Assembly: GCA_964625755.1 (NCBI GenBank)
Contig: CAZVBR010000004.1
Coordinates: 1 to 33,854, forward strand
Direction: 5' to 3'
Length of the DNA: 33,854 nucleotides
Source of the DNA: an uncultured Candidatus Saccharibacteria bacterium
GTDB lineage: Bacteria > Patescibacteriota > Minisyncoccia > Phycocordibacterales > XYD1-FULL-46-19
The notes beneath the pieces were generated by a model. The model searched no databases, was not told the origin of the DNA, and saw only the letters and a list, made by a program, of their open reading frames with translations. Positions 174 through 24,429 of this stretch are shown one piece after another. The translations under genes and the position numbers were made by a program. Numbering within the stretch: position 1 is the first letter of the stretch; every line of letters starts with the position of its first letter.

Positions 174-263
<90 letters not shown>

Positions 264-3903: not shown

Positions 3904-5920
<2,017 letters not shown>

Positions 5921-19850: not shown

Positions 19851-21245
19851 TTATTCGCGATCAGTGATATCCAGACCGAGCTCCTTTAATTGCTCCCCGC
19901 TTAAGTCCTTAGGGGCCTTCATAACCGCTGTCTGTCCACTACGGGTCATCGGAAAAGCCTGAACCTCCCGGAGCTGAGCCTCACCGGTCAAATTCATAAT
20001 ATTGCGCTCGATTCCCAGAGCGATCCCGCCGTGCGGCGGTGCCCCGTAGGAAAAAGCTTCCAGCATATGTCCGACTTTTTCCTCGATCTCTTTATCAGAA
20101 AAACCCATCACTTTGTAGGTGGCTTTTAGGATCTCGGGACGATGAGCCCGGATACTGCCACCCCCGGCCTCAAAACCGTTACAGACCAGATCATACTGTG
20201 AGGTAATTATCTCGGCTATGTTCTCTCCATTCAACAGCCAGTCCACGTGTTCTTGAATCGGCATCGAAAAAGGATTATGGGTAAAAGTCCATCGGCCGTC
20301 ATCGGTTTTCTCAAATAACGGAAAATCAAGAACCCAGGCATAAGCCAAAACATTTTCCCGTTTCTCGTCTTCAGTTCGAAGATCAAATTTATCCGCCCCG
20401 TACTTGTCCATCGCCTCCTTGAAAGTAACTCGAGGGAAAGGCTTGGTTTTAACGGTAAAACCCAAACTCTCCACCGTCTCGATGATCATCGCCTCGATCA
20501 CTTGCAGTATATCTTCCCGCTCAACAAAAGCCATTTCCAGATCAAGTTGGGTGTGTTCAAACCCCCGATCGGCCCTCAGGTCTTCATCCCGAACCGCTCT
20601 GGCGATCTGAAAATACTTTTCAAAACCGCCGGTCATCAAAAGCTGTTTATACTGTTGAGGCGATTGAGGTAAGGCGTAAAAATTACCCGGATGGAGACGA
20701 GACGGTACCACGAAATCCCGCGAACCTTCCGGCGTCGATTCCGTCAGTATCGGGGTTTCGATCTCGGTAAAATCCTGACGGAACAAAAATTCCCGGCACT
20801 TTTGAACGAACCGGCTCCTCATTCGGAGATTTTTCTGCATTCTCGAACTGCGCAGGTCAAGATATCGATACTTAAGCCGGACCGACTCCTCAATATCAGA
20901 AGTGTCTTCTGTTAGATCAAAAGGCGGAGTCTGAGCTTCATTCAAAACTTCAAACTCAAAAACCTCCAATTCCAGATTTCCGTTAACCTCATCCGGGTTA
21001 ACCATTTTTTCCGGTCGTTGTTTGACAAGGCCCTTGATCCGAACCACCCACTCAGATCTGACCTGACCGGCCAGGTTGTGTGCCGTCGCCTGCCCCGGCA
21101 AAACCACTGCCTGGATCTTTCCGGTTTCATCTCGAACATCAAGAAAGATCAATTTTCCGTGGTCACGTCTGGTATCGATCCAACCGGCGATCGTTACCTC
21201 TTCTTCTCGGTGATCATTTAGATCTTTGATATAAATTCTTTTCAT
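19851..21245 (-). CDS. aspS: Aspartyl-tRNA synthetase, bacterial-type core lacking the GAD insertion domain
   Basis: OB-fold N terminus (GWIDTRRDHGKLIFLDVRDETGKIQAV), FYALPQSPQQYKQLLM, ARAVRDEDLRADRGFEHTQLDLEMAF, and class II motif 3 (GGIALGIER). It is only 464 aa. Confidence 0.95.
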   Translation of the reverse strand: MKRIYIKDLNDHREEEVTIAGWIDTRRDHGKLIFLDVRDETGKIQAVVLPGQATAHNLAGQVRSEWVVRIKGLVKQRPEKMVNPDEVNGNLELEVFEFEVLNEAQTPPFDLTEDTSDIEESVRLKYRYLDLRSSRMQKNLRMRSRFVQKCREFLFRQDFTEIETPILTESTPEGSRDFVVPSRLHPGNFYALPQSPQQYKQLLMTGGFEKYFQIARAVRDEDLRADRGFEHTQLDLEMAFVEREDILQVIEAMIIETVESLGFTVKTKPFPRVTFKEAMDKYGADKFDLRTEDEKRENVLAYAWVLDFPLFEKTDDGRWTFTHNPFSMPIQEHVDWLLNGENIAEIITSQYDLVCNGFEAGGGSIRAHRPEILKATYKVMGFSDKEIEEKVGHMLEAFSYGAPPHGGIALGIERNIMNLTGEAQLREVQAFPMTRSGQTAVMKAPKDLSGEQLKELGLDITDRE

Positions 21246-21301: not shown

Positions 21302-22441
21302 CTAGCGCCGGATCACTTCCCGTTTTTCAATTTGACTGACCTGATCAACCACAAATGATTCTCGGCCGATCACCTGGCCTCGCTCGGTCTCAATGTTGAC
21401 CCGCCAACGGCCGGCCTCCGGCCCGGTCAAAAAGGAGTATCCCCGGTAACCGCCGTCCCGGCCCCCGATCAGATCATAACTAACTCGAGCCCGACTTTGC
21501 CAATTGCCGGTTTCCGGATCACGATACTGCCAATGGTGCACCACCACAATATCAAGCCGGGTCGGGGCAAAAACCGAAGCGAAAACATACACCGGCTCCC
21601 CGGCCAAGATCTCGATAGTCGGCCGCCAAAACACTCCTTGCCACCATGGCCGATCGGATGCCACGATCTCATAATCACCAACCCCGCTTCGACGAACCGA
21701 GTGATAGACACCGGCCTCCCGCAAAGACAGCGGGACCGGAGGGATAATATTGGTAAAATACAAAAAGTTGATCCCGAGAAATATCCCGGCCAGCAACCCG
21801 ACCAAAAACCGCTTACGGTCTCCCACGGCCGGCACATACCGAACCATTACATACATATAGCCGGCCATAACCGCCAAACTGACCACCCCGGAAAGAAAAA
21901 ACACCCAAACCTCGATACTCCGAAACAAAAACGGCAGGACCAATACACAGTACGAGAACACAATAAAGTAATACACTCCGAGTTGAATGTTCAGCCATAG
22001 ATAATACTTCTTCAGCAGATCGTTGGAAACCATCAAAAAAACGATCAGGGCAATAAACGGCCAACTGGCGGTAAACGAACTCGAGAACCAGTAAAATATC
22101 AAAAAACCGGACAACAGAGCCCCGAAAGTGTACTGCAGCACCAAAGGAGCAAATAGACGGAGATAGCGCCACCGCTTTTGCTCACCCGGAAATCGCCCGG
22201 CATCATAGCTTTGGATGAAAATAATGGTCAGACCGGACAGGAACAAATGCCAGGTTAAGATCGAAAAAGCCAGGTTAAGATTTATATTCTGAAACAAAAG
22301 AGCGTCGGTGGTCACTCCGATCAACAACGCCCCGGGGATCAAATATCGCTCATATTTCTCATAAAAACGACGTACGACCCCAAACCAGCGTGTGGGGTAA
22401 TTACTGTCCCGACCGAGAAAAAAACCTGTCTTGGTATTCAT
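21302..22441 (-). CDS. Polytopic membrane protein with a C-terminal soluble beta-rich domain (DUF2914-like)
   Basis: 379 aa with about 8 TM helices, then HHWQYRDPETGNWQSRARVSYDLIGGRDGGYRGYSFLTGPEAGRWRVNIETERGQVIGRESFVV, which resembles DUF2914 as I remember it. A candidate promoter (TTGACA-N17-TTCAAT) lies on the minus strand about 22500-22528. Confidence 0.75.
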   Translation of the reverse strand: MNTKTGFFLGRDSNYPTRWFGVVRRFYEKYERYLIPGALLIGVTTDALLFQNINLNLAFSILTWHLFLSGLTIIFIQSYDAGRFPGEQKRWRYLRLFAPLVLQYTFGALLSGFLIFYWFSSSFTASWPFIALIVFLMVSNDLLKKYYLWLNIQLGVYYFIVFSYCVLVLPFLFRSIEVWVFFLSGVVSLAVMAGYMYVMVRYVPAVGDRKRFLVGLLAGIFLGINFLYFTNIIPPVPLSLREAGVYHSVRRSGVGDYEIVASDRPWWQGVFWRPTIEILAGEPVYVFASVFAPTRLDIVVVHHWQYRDPETGNWQSRARVSYDLIGGRDGGYRGYSFLTGPEAGRWRVNIETERGQVIGRESFVVDQVSQIEKREVIRR

Positions 22442-22804
22442 AATAACCGTTATTTTTAGACCGGATCGCGATCACTTTAAAAGGTATTTAATTGAAATAC
22501 ATTTTCTGCGGTGTGTCAAATATATCATTCCGGGGCACCAGCTTCCAACCAAAACCGCCTTAAAAATAAATAGCCGAAACCGCCAACAGTCCCCCGACCA
22601 CTGCCATCAAAAACAAAAGGAGCAAAAACAATATTTTATTCTTTTTCATACTAAAACCGATCTTTATTTACAATATGATCATTATAATATATTTCCCCAA
22701 CTACCGACATATCCACAAATCCAAGCCCGGCTTGAACTCAATCCCCAAAACAAAACCGCCCCGAAACAACCTTCCCAAATCCTTAAACGCAAAAGCTCAC
22801 CAGA

Positions 22805-22832
22805 TTGACATTTATTCAGCAACCTTTATAAT
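22805..22832 (+). promoter_or_regulatory. Near-consensus sigma70 promoter driving the PEP-CTERM gene
   Basis: TTGACA (22805-22810), a 16-nt spacer, then TATAAT (22827-22832), in an AT-rich intergenic region 235 nt upstream of the ATG at 23067. Confidence 0.6.
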
Positions 22833-22894
22833 TTTGATAATATTGCTCTTAAAAGTTAAAGTGGTAGGTCTTTGACAATTGAATAAATTTATAC

Positions 22895-22966
22895 ATATGA
22901 GTGGCCGTCTGAATTGATCAGGCGGTAAACGATAAAAGCAGTCGGCCGCTCATATCACAGGCGGCC
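22895..22966 (+). promoter_or_regulatory. Structured 5' leader element with mutually exclusive helices
   Basis: A 13-bp helix pairs 22895-22907 with 22943-22955 (one G-U). A competing 9-bp helix pairs 22904-22912 with 22918-22926. A third option pairs 22903-22911 with 22958-22966. A 3' hairpin pairs 22944-22950 with 22960-22966. Confidence 0.4.
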
Positions 22967-23066
22967 AACCAACAGCCACCCCAAAAAAGAAAGGAGGGTA
23001 AAGAAAAAACACTTGAAAAAAACTTAACCCGAGCAAATCTAAACAGAAGGAAAGGAGACTGAAAGC

Positions 23067-23831
23067 ATGAAAATCGCAGTTGCGGTTGCGGCCGCGATAA
23101 TTTTGGCCGCTCCGGCTGGTGCCCTGTACATTGAGGGCACCCACGAAATGGAGAAGGGGCCAGACGGGGTCTGGTCCCACTTCACCGAAGAGGGGCTCGG
23201 GGCTGAAGTAACGTTCAGCGCCGAACCCCAAAATGAGTGGACCCTTGTGAGGGCCCACCTGGAAAACACAAGCACCCCCGGGCTATCAGAAAAGCCCGAG
23301 GGGCTGCTCCAAGGGGTGTTTTTCAATGCCCCGGAACTCACCCCCTTAGGAATCAATCTCGCCGATGGTGGCGGGATAATTGGGGACACCACTCCTGGCC
23401 GATACGAAATTCTCGGTGGCTGGGCGTACCGGGGCGACATCGAGGACCCCGACAACCCGTTTCGGCGGGTGTACGGGGTTAACTCCGGAATAGCCAACCC
23501 GGGGTTGGACACCTTCGGGAAATTTGACACGTTTGGGTACATCCTGGAGGGGAACGATGAGCTGTGGCCCACCCACAACCCAAAAGGGAGAGGTGGGATC
23601 GCCTCTCCCGGCGGAGGCACGCCCGACAGCGAAGTGTCGTACCTGGCCTCGCCGGGGATCGTGATCGATTTCGGGGCCCCTCTGGGGTTTAACCCCGACG
23701 AGTCGATCAGTGGGCTACACGCCCATTATGGAACCTCCGCGAAAGTCATCCCGGAACCGGCAACGATTACGTTGCTAGGAGTGGGATTGACATTCTGGGG
23801 GGCGAAAGCCCTCCGGCGCCGTCGCCATTAA
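23067..23831 (+). CDS. Secreted protein with a C-terminal PEP-CTERM (exosortase) sorting domain
   Basis: Signal peptide MKIAVAVAAAIILAAPAGA. The C terminus VIPEPATITLLGVGLTFWGAKALRRRRH* has PEP, a hydrophobic helix and an Arg cluster. SD AGGAG lies 9 nt upstream. GC is about 60% against the high 40s in neighbouring genes. Confidence 0.9.
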   Translation: MKIAVAVAAAIILAAPAGALYIEGTHEMEKGPDGVWSHFTEEGLGAEVTFSAEPQNEWTLVRAHLENTSTPGLSEKPEGLLQGVFFNAPELTPLGINLADGGGIIGDTTPGRYEILGGWAYRGDIEDPDNPFRRVYGVNSGIANPGLDTFGKFDTFGYILEGNDELWPTHNPKGRGGIASPGGGTPDSEVSYLASPGIVIDFGAPLGFNPDESISGLHAHYGTSAKVIPEPATITLLGVGLTFWGAKALRRRRH

Positions 23832-23856
23832 CACCGGCGCCGGCAACACAAACCAA

Positions 23857-23879
23857 AGGCAGCCCCTCGCGGGCTGCCT
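23857..23879 (+). terminator. Hairpin after the PEP-CTERM gene (weak U-tract)
   Basis: AGGCAGCCC-CTCGC-GGGCTGCCT is a 9-bp GC-rich stem, followed by TAAATCTT rather than a clean T-run. Confidence 0.55.
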
Positions 23880-23955
23880 TAAATCTTACCTGAACCTCTC
23901 GATTAGAACTCTCCGGAAATTATCTCTGTTTAACTTTTAAGATAAACTGTTGATT

Positions 23956-24429
23956 TTAATCTAAGTCATCGCAGAACTTTGGTACATCACTATCTTCACT
24001 GGCTGGATTGGGAACTGACCCGGCAAAGCCATCGGAATCAACGCACCAATATTTATCGCCCTCATCTTCAAGATTCAATTTCGCGGTCACGACCCATCTA
24101 CGGGAATCAGAACGACATGCTATATTGTCATTATTAGGACCATTTGCATCAATTGCTTCTTGCAATCTGTTAATAGTGCTATCATCTATGTTATCATCAT
24201 CATCAACAGTAAAACTTCCATCATCACTACAAATATCTGCAAAACTACCTTCCCTCATACCACGAACTTCCATAGCCGACCGCAAACTGCTCATCTCCGA
24301 CCTGGTATTCGCATCCCGAGCTTCGTCCCGGGACTCCCCCATAGAAGTCAAAACCACTCCGGCCAAGATCCCGATGATCGCGATCACCACCAAAAGCTCA
24401 ATTAACGTAAACCCTTTTTGCTTTAACAT
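23956..24429 (-). CDS. Type IV pilin (prepilin-type N-terminal cleavage/methylation domain)
   Basis: MLKQKG/FTLIELLVVIAIIGILAGVVL is the class III signal peptide with Glu+5. The acidic C-terminal globular domain has 4 Cys. Confidence 0.92.
   Translation of the reverse strand: MLKQKGFTLIELLVVIAIIGILAGVVLTSMGESRDEARDANTRSEMSSLRSAMEVRGMREGSFADICSDDGSFTVDDDDNIDDSTINRLQEAIDANGPNNDNIACRSDSRRWVVTAKLNLEDEGDKYWCVDSDGFAGSVPNPASEDSDVPKFCDDLD

What the first reader, a model, noticed from the sequence alone, without database searches (positions are those of the whole stretch)
23067..23831. Exosortase-type (PEP-CTERM) cargo protein in a CPR-like genome context, with no exosortase nearby
The 254-aa protein has a Sec-type signal peptide and ends ...VIPEPATITLLGVGLTFWGAKALRRRRH*. 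That is a PEP tripeptide (nt 23751-23759), a roughly 17-residue hydrophobic helix and a terminal Arg cluster, which together are the textbook PEP-CTERM sorting signal. PEP-CTERM signals only function with an exosortase (EpsH/Xrt family). They are classically found in multiple paralogous copies in diderm, exopolysaccharide-producing bacteria. Every other gene in this 34-kb window looks like a minimal-metabolism Patescibacteria-type organism, and none of the roughly 34 neighbours is an exosortase or an EPS gene. I do not recognise the roughly 200-aa G/P/D-rich mature domain as any family. The gene has the strongest promoter in the window and a long structured leader, so it looks expressed and regulated rather than decaying. 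Three readings are possible: an undescribed sorting system in this lineage, a cargo hijacked from a host or partner organism, or a surface protein reusing the tail as a plain membrane anchor.
Basis: partly seen in the sequence, partly recalled or inferred. Interest (0 to 1): 0.72.

Follow-up and report, generated by a model that had tools for sequence, protein, structure and literature searches.

The report
Borrowed PEP-CTERM surface protein in CPR bacterium
A tiny symbiont-type (CPR, Vogelbacteria-like) bacterium from soda-lake sediment carries one surface-protein gene of a known family (XDD4, PEP-CTERM tail), apparently picked up from a Hydrogenedentota-like neighbour and re-fitted with a standard promoter; whether its sorting tail is still processed could not be tested.

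Summary
ORF 23067-23831 (+) encodes 254 aa: a signal peptide, a ~200-aa domain and a C-terminal PEP-CTERM tail that passes both curated HMM cut-offs. The "unrecognised" domain is a known family, XDD4 exosortase-dependent surface protein (NF045504): 39.8 bits against a cut-off of 40, and all 120 homologues scanned match that model.

The host is a CPR bacterium. AspRS and GroEL give only Patescibacteria as named best hits. A 99%-identical GroEL lies in MAG PWLU01, "Ca. Vogelbacteria bacterium CSSed10_250", from soda-lake sediment. The join is real: an independent assembly, 99.0% identical over 11 kb, has the same arrangement.

The gene looks horizontally acquired. It has the highest GC and GC3 of 31 window genes. 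Its closest relatives (38-44% identity) are in Ca. Hydrogenedentota, one from the same soda-lake study. Those relatives carry sigma-54 promoters; this copy has the window's only perfect sigma-70 consensus. Two strain alleles differ by 12 synonymous and 2 non-synonymous changes, so the gene is maintained.

No exosortase is in the window, but canonical hosts also scatter these genes far from the exosortase. Most likely it is a membrane-tethered surface protein. Exosortase processing remains untested.

The parts
22805..22832 (+). Sigma-70-type promoter, TTGACA-16 nt-TATAAT (12 of 12 matches).
   Evidence: it is the only perfect match in the 33.8-kb window, with 0.01 expected by chance. It is identical in the second strain, L001.
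22840..23066 (+). Inferred 5' leader of about 227 nt (start is approximate). It contains a strong 13-bp-stem hairpin at 22895-22955.
   Evidence: MFE -54.7 kcal/mol against a shuffle mean of -41.2, z = -3.2. There is no Rfam match. The only comparison sequence is a near-identical strain, so covariation cannot be assessed.
23053..23057 (+). Shine-Dalgarno AGGAG, with 9 nt between it and the ATG.
   Evidence: Read directly from the sequence.
23067..23831 (+). CDS of 254 aa, a divergent XDD4-family PEP-CTERM surface protein.
   Evidence: GC is 0.605 and GC3 is 0.698, the highest of 31 window genes. Comparison with the L001 allele gives pN/pS = 0.056.
23067..23123 (+). Sec signal peptide, residues 1-19 (MKIAVAVAAAIILAAPAGA). 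The predicted signal peptidase I site is AGA|LY.
   Evidence: Inferred from the sequence by the -3/-1 rule. The AlphaFold model has a helix at residues 2-13. The motif A-L-Y-I-E is conserved in P0002 and P0003 after their PAWA site.
23190..23741 (+). XDD4 domain, residues 42-225 (NF045504). The predicted fold is a beta-sandwich and the domain is acidic (pI 4.4).
   Evidence: E 4.5e-10. (all 121 alignment members match NF045504). (pLDDT 88.6, pTM 0.83). (pI).
23748..23825 (+). PEP-CTERM sorting domain, residues 228-253. It consists of PEP (23751-23759), a hydrophobic helix and an RRRR cluster.
   Evidence: both curated cut-offs are passed. Between the two strains this stretch has 4 synonymous changes and no amino-acid change; the one nearby replacement, H254Q, is the terminal residue just past it.
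23856..23880 (.). GC-rich hairpin AAGGCAGCCCCTCGCGGGCTGCCTT between the convergent XDD4 and pilin genes. It is terminator-like.
   Evidence: the scan flags it on the minus strand. On the plus strand no T-run follows, so its function is only inferred.
22847..22860 (.). Left arm of a perfect 14-nt inverted repeat, TCTTAAAAGTTAAA. With the right arm it brackets the leader plus the gene.
   Evidence: A perfect 14-nt inverted repeat occurs in 2.3% of block shuffles of the 4.6-kb region.
23929..23942 (.). Right arm of the same inverted repeat, TTTAACTTTTAAGA.
   Evidence: This arm has one mismatch in strain L001, so it is not strictly conserved. It may be an insertion scar or a chance match.

Best explanation
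The gene encodes a divergent member of the XDD4 family of PEP-CTERM ('exosortase-dependent') surface proteins. A soda-lake Paceibacteria-class CPR bacterium, near-identical to MAG 'Ca. Vogelbacteria bacterium CSSed10_250', acquired it horizontally from a higher-GC diderm lineage, most likely Ca. Hydrogenedentota. After transfer, the sigma-54 promoter seen in the donor-type genes was replaced by a consensus sigma-70 promoter. The gene has since been kept under purifying selection.

Inferred mechanism: the protein is exported by Sec and its signal peptide is cut at AGA|LY. The acidic ~200-aa beta-sandwich domain is then displayed outside the cell. It stays tethered to the single cytoplasmic membrane by the PEP-CTERM helix plus the Arg cluster, which acts as a stop-transfer anchor. 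It probably serves as a surface or adhesion protein. Within this explanation I consider it more likely than not (about 2:1) that the genome has no exosortase and the tail is not cleaved.

Shown: family membership, CPR host, a real genomic join, foreign composition, the promoter difference and purifying selection. Inferred: the donor identity, the topology, the absence of an exosortase and the adhesive role.
For: - Family: NF045504 XDD4 at E 4.5e-10. A profile of the protein and its two closest homologues finds 384 representatives, and all 121 sequences of alignment A5 (the window protein plus 120 homologues) match XDD4.
- Tail: both curated cut-offs are passed.
- CPR host: the 80 best AspRS loci carry almost only Patescibacteria or unclassified titles, at up to 70-77% identity. 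All named GroEL top hits are Patescibacteria. A 99%-identical GroEL lies in PWLU01 = Ca. Vogelbacteria CSSed10_250, which the authors flagged as CPR (PMC6146748 supplement 4).
- Real join: contig k141_977207 from ERZ27266011 is 99.0% identical and colinear over 11,145 nt across both junctions.
- Foreign origin: GC 0.605 and GC3 0.698, against roughly 0.49 and 0.55 in typical neighbouring genes. Relatives sit on contigs of 57-61% GC.
- Donor: the closest relatives P0004 and P0005 are in Ca. Hydrogenedentota/Hydrogenedentes MAGs. P0005 comes from the same soda-lake study.
- Rarity in CPR: no homologue and no PEP-CTERM-like tail was found in 1.24 Mb from 80 related CPR loci. The regex used is 78% sensitive on the family and finds 3 tails in 20 kb of Hydrogenedentota DNA.
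- Promoter swap: TGGCAC-N5-TTGC lies at -86 to -109 upstream of all four closest relatives and is absent here even with one mismatch allowed. The window's only perfect sigma-70 consensus is upstream of this gene.
- Maintenance: 12 synonymous against 2 non-synonymous differences between strains.
- Structure: pLDDT 88.6, with a beta-sandwich plus a C-terminal helix at residues 232-253.
Against: - Only 34 kb of a genome whose MAG is 0.63 Mb in 108 contigs was seen, so absence of an exosortase is not shown.
- The tail is as well conserved as in bona fide exosortase substrates. That fits continued processing as well as it fits anchoring.
- Identity to the nearest Hydrogenedentota proteins is only 38-44%. 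The true donor is therefore unsampled or the transfer is old, which sits uneasily with the strong GC3 contrast.
- The high GC is partly driven by the Gly/Pro-rich composition.
- The XDD4 HMM score is 0.2 bit below NCBI's cut-off.
- No function of any XDD4 protein has been tested. There is no structural analogue in the PDB.
Confidence: 0.55

Rival explanations
1. This is a functional exosortase substrate. The CPR genome encodes an exosortase-family enzyme, or an unrecognised analogue, elsewhere. That enzyme cleaves at PEP and transfers the protein to a lipid or envelope acceptor. This would be an exosortase system in Patescibacteria.
For: The tail passes both curated HMM cut-offs and matches the family consensus. 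It carries 4 synonymous changes and no internal replacement between strains. In canonical hosts, PEP-CTERM genes lie far from the exosortase, so a 34-kb window says little. From general knowledge, exosortase/archaeosortase relatives do work in cells with a single membrane (archaea; XrtG in Gram-positives).
Against: No exosortase hit in the window, even at E<=1 for the ten proteins re-scanned with NCBIfam. The gene is a single copy, with no other PEP-CTERM tail in the window or in 1.24 Mb of related CPR DNA. No sigma-54, PrsR or EPS-export genes are present, unlike the canonical locus L087. No paper in the library links exosortase with Patescibacteria; the few papers that mention exosortase or PEP-CTERM alongside the candidate phyla radiation are not about it.
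Confidence: 0.27
2. This is a recently acquired passenger gene with no role in the CPR cell. It is tolerated foreign DNA on its way to decay.
For: Foreign GC and GC3. The gene is absent from related CPR loci. A possible insertion scar, the 14-nt inverted repeat, brackets it.
Against: The ORF is intact in two strains, with 12 synonymous and 2 non-synonymous differences (pN/pS 0.056). It has a perfect sigma-70 promoter and a good Shine-Dalgarno sequence in place of the donor-type sigma-54 promoter. It sits in a streamlined genome where useless DNA is rarely kept (general knowledge).
Confidence: 0.1
3. This is an assembly or binning artefact. A fragment from a diderm organism was joined to a CPR contig, or the contig is not from a CPR bacterium at all.
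For: GC jumps from about 0.38 in the upstream intergenic region to 0.605 in the gene. The other assembly breaks inside the neighbouring pilin gene.
Against: An independent assembly from another sample, of a different strain (90 mismatches in 11 kb), has the same order DUF2914 - 625-nt spacer - XDD4 - pilin. Two marker genes on the same contig are CPR.
Confidence: 0.03

Closest known systems
XDD4 family exosortase-dependent surface protein (NCBIfam NF045504)
   Same: It has the same architecture: signal peptide, a ~200-aa domain and a PEP-CTERM tail. The HMM match covers residues 42-225 and model positions 24-200 of 202. All 120 homologues retrieved with its profile and scanned are XDD4 matches. 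NCBI names the 42%-identical P0004 as XDD4.
   Different: The score is 39.8 bits against a cut-off of 40. With four other 50%-identity clusters it forms a small, divergent subclade. The host is a CPR bacterium, whereas the named hosts sampled were Hydrogenedentota or Phycisphaerae. It has a sigma-70 promoter where its closest relatives have sigma-54 promoters. It is a single copy rather than tandem or clustered paralogues.
PEP-CTERM/exosortase (EpsH, Xrt) protein-sorting system of EPS-producing diderm bacteria (Haft et al. 2006, 2012; cited from memory)
   Same: The C-terminal tripartite signal, PEP + helix + Arg cluster, is intact and passes TIGR02595 and PF07589.
   Different: The window holds no exosortase, EPS-export gene, PrsK/PrsR-type regulator or sigma-54 promoter. 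From general knowledge, the host lineage lacks an outer membrane. No other PEP-CTERM genes were seen.
Flocculation PEP-CTERM protein PepA of Zoogloea (NF033554; Gao et al. 2018, as cited in PMC11393006)
   Same: Both are small secreted PEP-CTERM proteins thought to act in the cell-surface matrix. In both cases expression in the typical hosts depends on sigma-54 (the Zoogloea case is from memory).
   Different: Only the tail matches (16.7 bits against a cut-off of 80, residues 228-253). The mature domains are unrelated.
JDVT-CTERM sorting signal with a CPBP-type intramembrane protease, described by NCBI curators for CPR lineages including Vogelbacteria (from memory, not verified here)
   Same: It is a C-terminal sorting signal on surface proteins of CPR bacteria.
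   Different: No such model appears among the NCBIfam hits of this protein at E<=10. No CPBP/CAAX protease was found in the window. The tail here is a classical PEP-CTERM.

Membership tests
PEP-CTERM sorting domain (TIGR02595 / PF07589) | The HMM score is above the curated cut-off. | tested here: met
   TIGR02595 scores 19.6 bits (cut-off 16). PF07589 scores 22.4 bits (cut-off 20.7).
PEP-CTERM sorting domain (TIGR02595 / PF07589) | The signal lies at the extreme C terminus and consists of a PEP motif, a ~17-20-residue hydrophobic helix and a basic cluster. The protein also has an N-terminal signal peptide. | tested here: met
   Residues 229-231 are PEP, 232-249 are hydrophobic and 250-253 are RRRR, followed by the stop codon. 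The N terminus is MKIAVAVAAAIILAAPAGA. The AlphaFold model has a helix at 232-253.
PEP-CTERM sorting domain (TIGR02595 / PF07589) | It co-occurs in the same genome with an exosortase (EpsH/Xrt family). | not testable with these tools
   There is none in the 33.8-kb window. The rest of the genome (MAG GCA_003558395.1, 108 contigs) could not be fetched.
PEP-CTERM sorting domain (TIGR02595 / PF07589) | The genome holds several to many PEP-CTERM paralogues. | tested here: inconclusive
   There is no second PEP-CTERM tail in the window or in 1.24 Mb of 80 related CPR loci. The regex used is 78% sensitive. Only about 5% of this genome was seen.
XDD4 family (NF045504) | The whole-protein HMM score is at least 40 bits. 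| tested here: inconclusive
   The score is 39.8 bits, 0.2 bit short, with E 4.5e-10 and 177 of 202 model positions covered. Reciprocally, 121 of 121 sequences of alignment A5 (the window protein itself plus 120 homologues found with its profile) match NF045504, best E 3.2e-72. I treat it as a divergent member.
XDD4 family (NF045504) | The domain is followed by an exosortase-type C-terminal signal. | tested here: met
   The PEP-CTERM signal follows directly after the domain. 123 of the 151 proteins then held (the listed homologues) have P[ED]P in the last 32 residues.
Canonical PEP-CTERM/EPS regulon | The gene has a sigma-54 promoter, with PrsK/PrsR-type control and neighbouring EPS export genes. 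| tested here: not met
   No TGGCAC-N5-TTGC motif occurs in the window, even with one mismatch. No Sigma54_activat or Poly_export domains were found. Relatives L002, L083, L084 and L091 have the motif, and L087 has the regulator and export genes.
Patescibacteria (CPR) genome context | Marker proteins on the same contig are closest to CPR genomes. | tested here: met
   The 80 best AspRS loci have almost only Patescibacteria or unclassified titles, up to 70-77% identity. All named GroEL top hits are Patescibacteria, at 72-78% identity. A 99% match lies in Ca. Vogelbacteria CSSed10_250.

The most novel reading that the evidence does not exclude
A CPR episymbiont (soda-lake Vogelbacteria) has captured a matrix or surface protein from the Hydrogenedentota-type bacteria it lives with. 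It displays that protein, with no exosortase, as a membrane-anchored mimic that docks into the partner's PEP-CTERM/EPS surface layer. This would make it a host-derived adhesin and a genomic pointer to the unknown host. Alternatively, the lineage has the first exosortase-type sorting pathway seen in Patescibacteria.
Probability: 0.15. Interest if true: 0.75.

Novelty: new member of a known kind. Interest (0 to 1): 0.42.

Why it matters
PEP-CTERM proteins are regarded as a hallmark of outer-membrane-bearing, EPS-producing bacteria that have an exosortase. A maintained, strongly promoted copy in a CPR bacterium is an out-of-place case. It can test whether the tail works without its sortase. It also shows inter-phylum transfer into a streamlined genome, with a promoter change from sigma-54 to sigma-70. 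Finally, it offers a concrete, checkable hint (Hydrogenedentota in the same soda-lake sediments) about the partner of an abundant uncultured CPR lineage. If an exosortase turns up elsewhere in the genome, the finding shrinks to a taxonomic range extension.

Tried and rejected
- A word-index protein search found only 2 homologues. The exhaustive HMMER search was needed to see the family.
- Searches of JGI metagenome contigs, IMG/VR viral contigs and PLSDB plasmids for relatives found nothing. The first alignment was too divergent for pattern design.
- Synteny with the closest GTDB CPR genomes does not extend beyond AspRS, so there is no empty-site comparison.
- Genome walking from the window ends failed. 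The right-end protein lies on a 10-kb contig that stops at the same place as the window, and the left-end protein is not on record.
- An exosortase-like motif scan (CSG...NxxR in multi-TM ORFs) over all fetched loci gave 0 hits. This is a weak test.
- Rfam found nothing in the leader or intergenic regions, so a known riboswitch is rejected.
- Foldseek against the PDB (best E 0.03, TM <= 0.26) and a PDB sequence-profile search gave no analogue. The weak leukocidin and cohesin rows are not evidence.
- Literature searches for exosortase or PEP-CTERM together with CPR/Patescibacteria, and for 'XDD4', found nothing relevant.
- I considered the neighbouring DUF2914 membrane protein (21302-22441, divergently transcribed) as a hidden exosortase. 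I rejected it because it has no exosortase-family hit at E<=1.

Full report
**1. Observation**

The ORF at 23067-23831 (+) exists as described. It is 254 aa and ends ...VIPEPATITLLGVGLTFWGAKALRRRRH*. The tail passes the curated cut-offs of both sorting-domain models. TIGR02595 scores 19.6 bits against 16, and PF07589 scores 22.4 bits against 20.7.

The N terminus, MKIAVAVAAAIILAAPAGA|LY, reads as a Sec signal peptide with an AXA-type site. This is an inference from the sequence. The AlphaFold model has a helix at residues 2-13.

The promoter claim holds as a consensus match. TTGACA-16-TATAAT at 22805-22832 is the only perfect match in the window, with 0.01 expected by chance. An AGGAG lies 9 nt before the ATG. 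The roughly 227-nt leader folds more stably than shuffles (z = -3.2), mainly through one hairpin at 22895-22955. It matches no Rfam family.

**2. What the protein is**

It is a named family. Residues 42-225 match NCBIfam NF045504, 'XDD4 family exosortase-dependent surface protein', at E 4.5e-10 and 39.8 bits against a cut-off of 40.

An exhaustive HMMER search with a profile of the protein and its two closest homologues found 384 representative proteins at E<=1e-3. Of these, 33 were at <=1e-10 and only 4 at <=1e-30. Nearly all are 230-290-aa proteins with the same three-part build. All 121 sequences of alignment A5 (the window protein plus 120 homologues) match NF045504, with a best E of 3.2e-72. 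So this is a divergent member of a known family.

AlphaFold2 with that alignment gives a confident model (pLDDT 88.6, pTM 0.83). It shows a beta-sandwich over residues 25-221 followed by a helix at 232-253. Neither Foldseek nor a sequence profile finds a solved analogue. The mature domain is acidic (pI 4.4) and has no cysteine.

**3. Whose genome it is**

- AspRS (19851-21245) has its 80 best matches among GTDB species genomes almost only in Patescibacteria or unclassified MAGs: Zambryskibacteria, Parcubacteria, Campbellbacteria, Paceibacterota and others. Identity is up to 70%, or 77% for a partial match.
- All named top hits for GroEL (3904-5604) are Patescibacteria, at 72-78% identity.
- A 99%-identical GroEL lies on PWLU01000100.1 of GCA_003558395.1, with the same GroES-GroEL-LemA order.
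- Supplement 4 of PMC6146748 lists PWLU as 'Candidatus Vogelbacteria bacterium CSSed10_250'. It is 0.63 Mb in 108 contigs, flagged CPR, and comes from hypersaline soda-lake sediment.
- The remaining window genes are housekeeping or small-genome genes, including a type IV pilin directly downstream. None is an exosortase, an EPS gene or a sigma-54 activator.

**4. Is the join real?**

Contig k141_977207 of ENA assembly ERZ27266011 is colinear with the window over 11,145 nt. The identity is 99.0%, with 90 mismatches. It runs from the AddA-like helicase gene, through DUF2914 and the 625-nt spacer, through the XDD4 gene, and into the pilin gene. It is a different strain in a different assembly, so a chimera is very unlikely.

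**5. Origin**

The gene has the highest GC (0.605) and GC3 (0.698) of 31 window genes. Typical neighbouring genes are near 0.49 and 0.55. It is flanked by AT-rich non-coding DNA of 0.38 GC upstream.

Its only close relatives, at 38-44% identity, are P0002-P0005.

- P0004 is in a Ca. Hydrogenedentota MAG.
- P0005 is in PUMX01, 'Ca. Hydrogenedentes bacterium B1Sed10_210R1'. That MAG has GC 59.4% and comes from the same soda-lake study as the CPR MAG.
- P0004 and P0005 share their upstream neighbours, a ~375-aa protein and a SIS-domain protein.
- Other family members sampled are in Hydrogenedentota or Phycisphaerae.

Among 80 related CPR loci (1.24 Mb) there is no homologue. There is also no PEP-CTERM-like tail. 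The regex used recovers 78% of the family and finds three tails in 20 kb of a Hydrogenedentota contig.

I conclude that the gene was horizontally acquired from a Hydrogenedentota-like, higher-GC diderm. The modest identity means the actual donor is unsampled or the event is not very recent.

**6. Rewiring and maintenance**

All four closest relatives with enough upstream sequence carry a sigma-54 promoter motif, TGGCAC-N5-TTGC, 86-109 nt before the start codon. The window has no such motif anywhere, even with one mismatch. Instead it has the perfect sigma-70 promoter.

A canonical XDD4 locus (L087) also has several PEP-CTERM genes, a sigma-54-dependent response regulator and polysaccharide-export genes.

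Between the two CPR strains, the gene differs at 13 codons. There are 12 synonymous and 2 non-synonymous changes, giving pN/pS = 0.056. The PEP-CTERM stretch has 4 synonymous changes, and the only replacement near it is the last residue, H254Q. The gene is therefore expressed from a host-type promoter and kept under purifying selection.

**7. The exosortase question**

No exosortase is in the window. This is weak evidence, however. In Hydrogenedentota contig L086, three PEP-CTERM genes lie among pantothenate, GlnRS, UvrA and ABC-F genes, and none of the called genes in that 20-kb locus carries an exosortase Pfam family.

I could not reach the rest of this genome. Walking from the window ends failed. 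No paper in the library links exosortases with Patescibacteria.

The points that make me favour 'no exosortase, tail used as a stop-transfer membrane anchor' by about 2:1 are:
- the gene is a single copy;
- the whole regulatory and EPS context is missing;
- the tail type is rare or absent in sampled relatives;
- the genome is small.

This is an inference, not a result.

**8. Verdict**

This is a real gene and a member of a known family (XDD4/PEP-CTERM) in an unexpected host. There is a clear horizontal-transfer signature and a promoter swap. It is a new member of a known kind and of moderate interest.

The interest would rise if a complete genome shows no exosortase, or if Hydrogenedentota prove to be the physical partner of this CPR lineage. 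It would fall if an ordinary exosortase is found on another contig.

Noticed in passing
window 22847-22860 and 23929-23942: A perfect 14-nt inverted repeat (TCTTAAAAGTTAAA / TTTAACTTTTAAGA) brackets the leader, the XDD4 gene and its hairpin. It starts 15 nt after the -10 box and ends 13 nt before the pilin stop codon. It occurs in 2.3% of block shuffles. The right arm has one mismatch in strain L001. It may be an insertion scar or a chance match.
   Followed up: partly
window 22560-22649 (-): A small ORF of 29 aa, MKKNKILFLLLLFLMAVVGGLLAVSAIYF, encodes a single hydrophobic helix. It lies in the long spacer between DUF2914 and the XDD4 gene. It is called as a gene in the ENA contig (L001 9494-9583) and is identical in both strains.
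   Followed up: no
window 23729-23828 compared with L001: Of the 14 nucleotide differences between the two strains in the XDD4 CDS, 11 fall in the last 34 codons and are mostly synonymous. That is about 11% divergence locally, against 0.8% over the 11 kb. It suggests a recombination tract or a locally older allele at the 3' end.
   Followed up: partly
window 23956-24429 (-); L001 10888-11142; L092 9498-9974: The type IV pilin gene next to the XDD4 gene is very acidic. It appears strain-variable. The other sample's assembly breaks inside it, and L001 diverges from the window right after the pilin stop region.
   Followed up: no
L002 43-57, L083 847-861, L084 9892-9906, L091 about 9915: Textbook sigma-54 promoters (TGGCAC-N5-TTGC) lie 86-109 nt upstream of XDD4 genes in Hydrogenedentota-type contigs. 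L083 also shows two XDD4 paralogues in tandem, separated by about 690 nt.
   Followed up: yes
window 22895-22955 (+): A 61-nt hairpin with a 13-bp GC-rich stem lies in the leader of the XDD4 gene. No T-run follows it and it matches no Rfam family. Its role (attenuator, RNA stability element or repeat element) is unknown.
   Followed up: partly
L013, L036, L038, L045: GTDB-collection MAGs titled 'Gammaproteobacteria', 'Bdellovibrionales' or 'archaeon' carry AspRS genes 54-62% identical to this CPR AspRS. They sit among Patescibacteria hits, so the record titles are probably mislabelled.
   Followed up: no
window 174-263 (-) and window ends: A tRNA-Ser(GGA) lies at the left edge of the window. 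Independent assemblies stop within about 230 nt of the window's right end (L092). This hints at a repeat or a variable region just beyond 33.85 kb.
   Followed up: no
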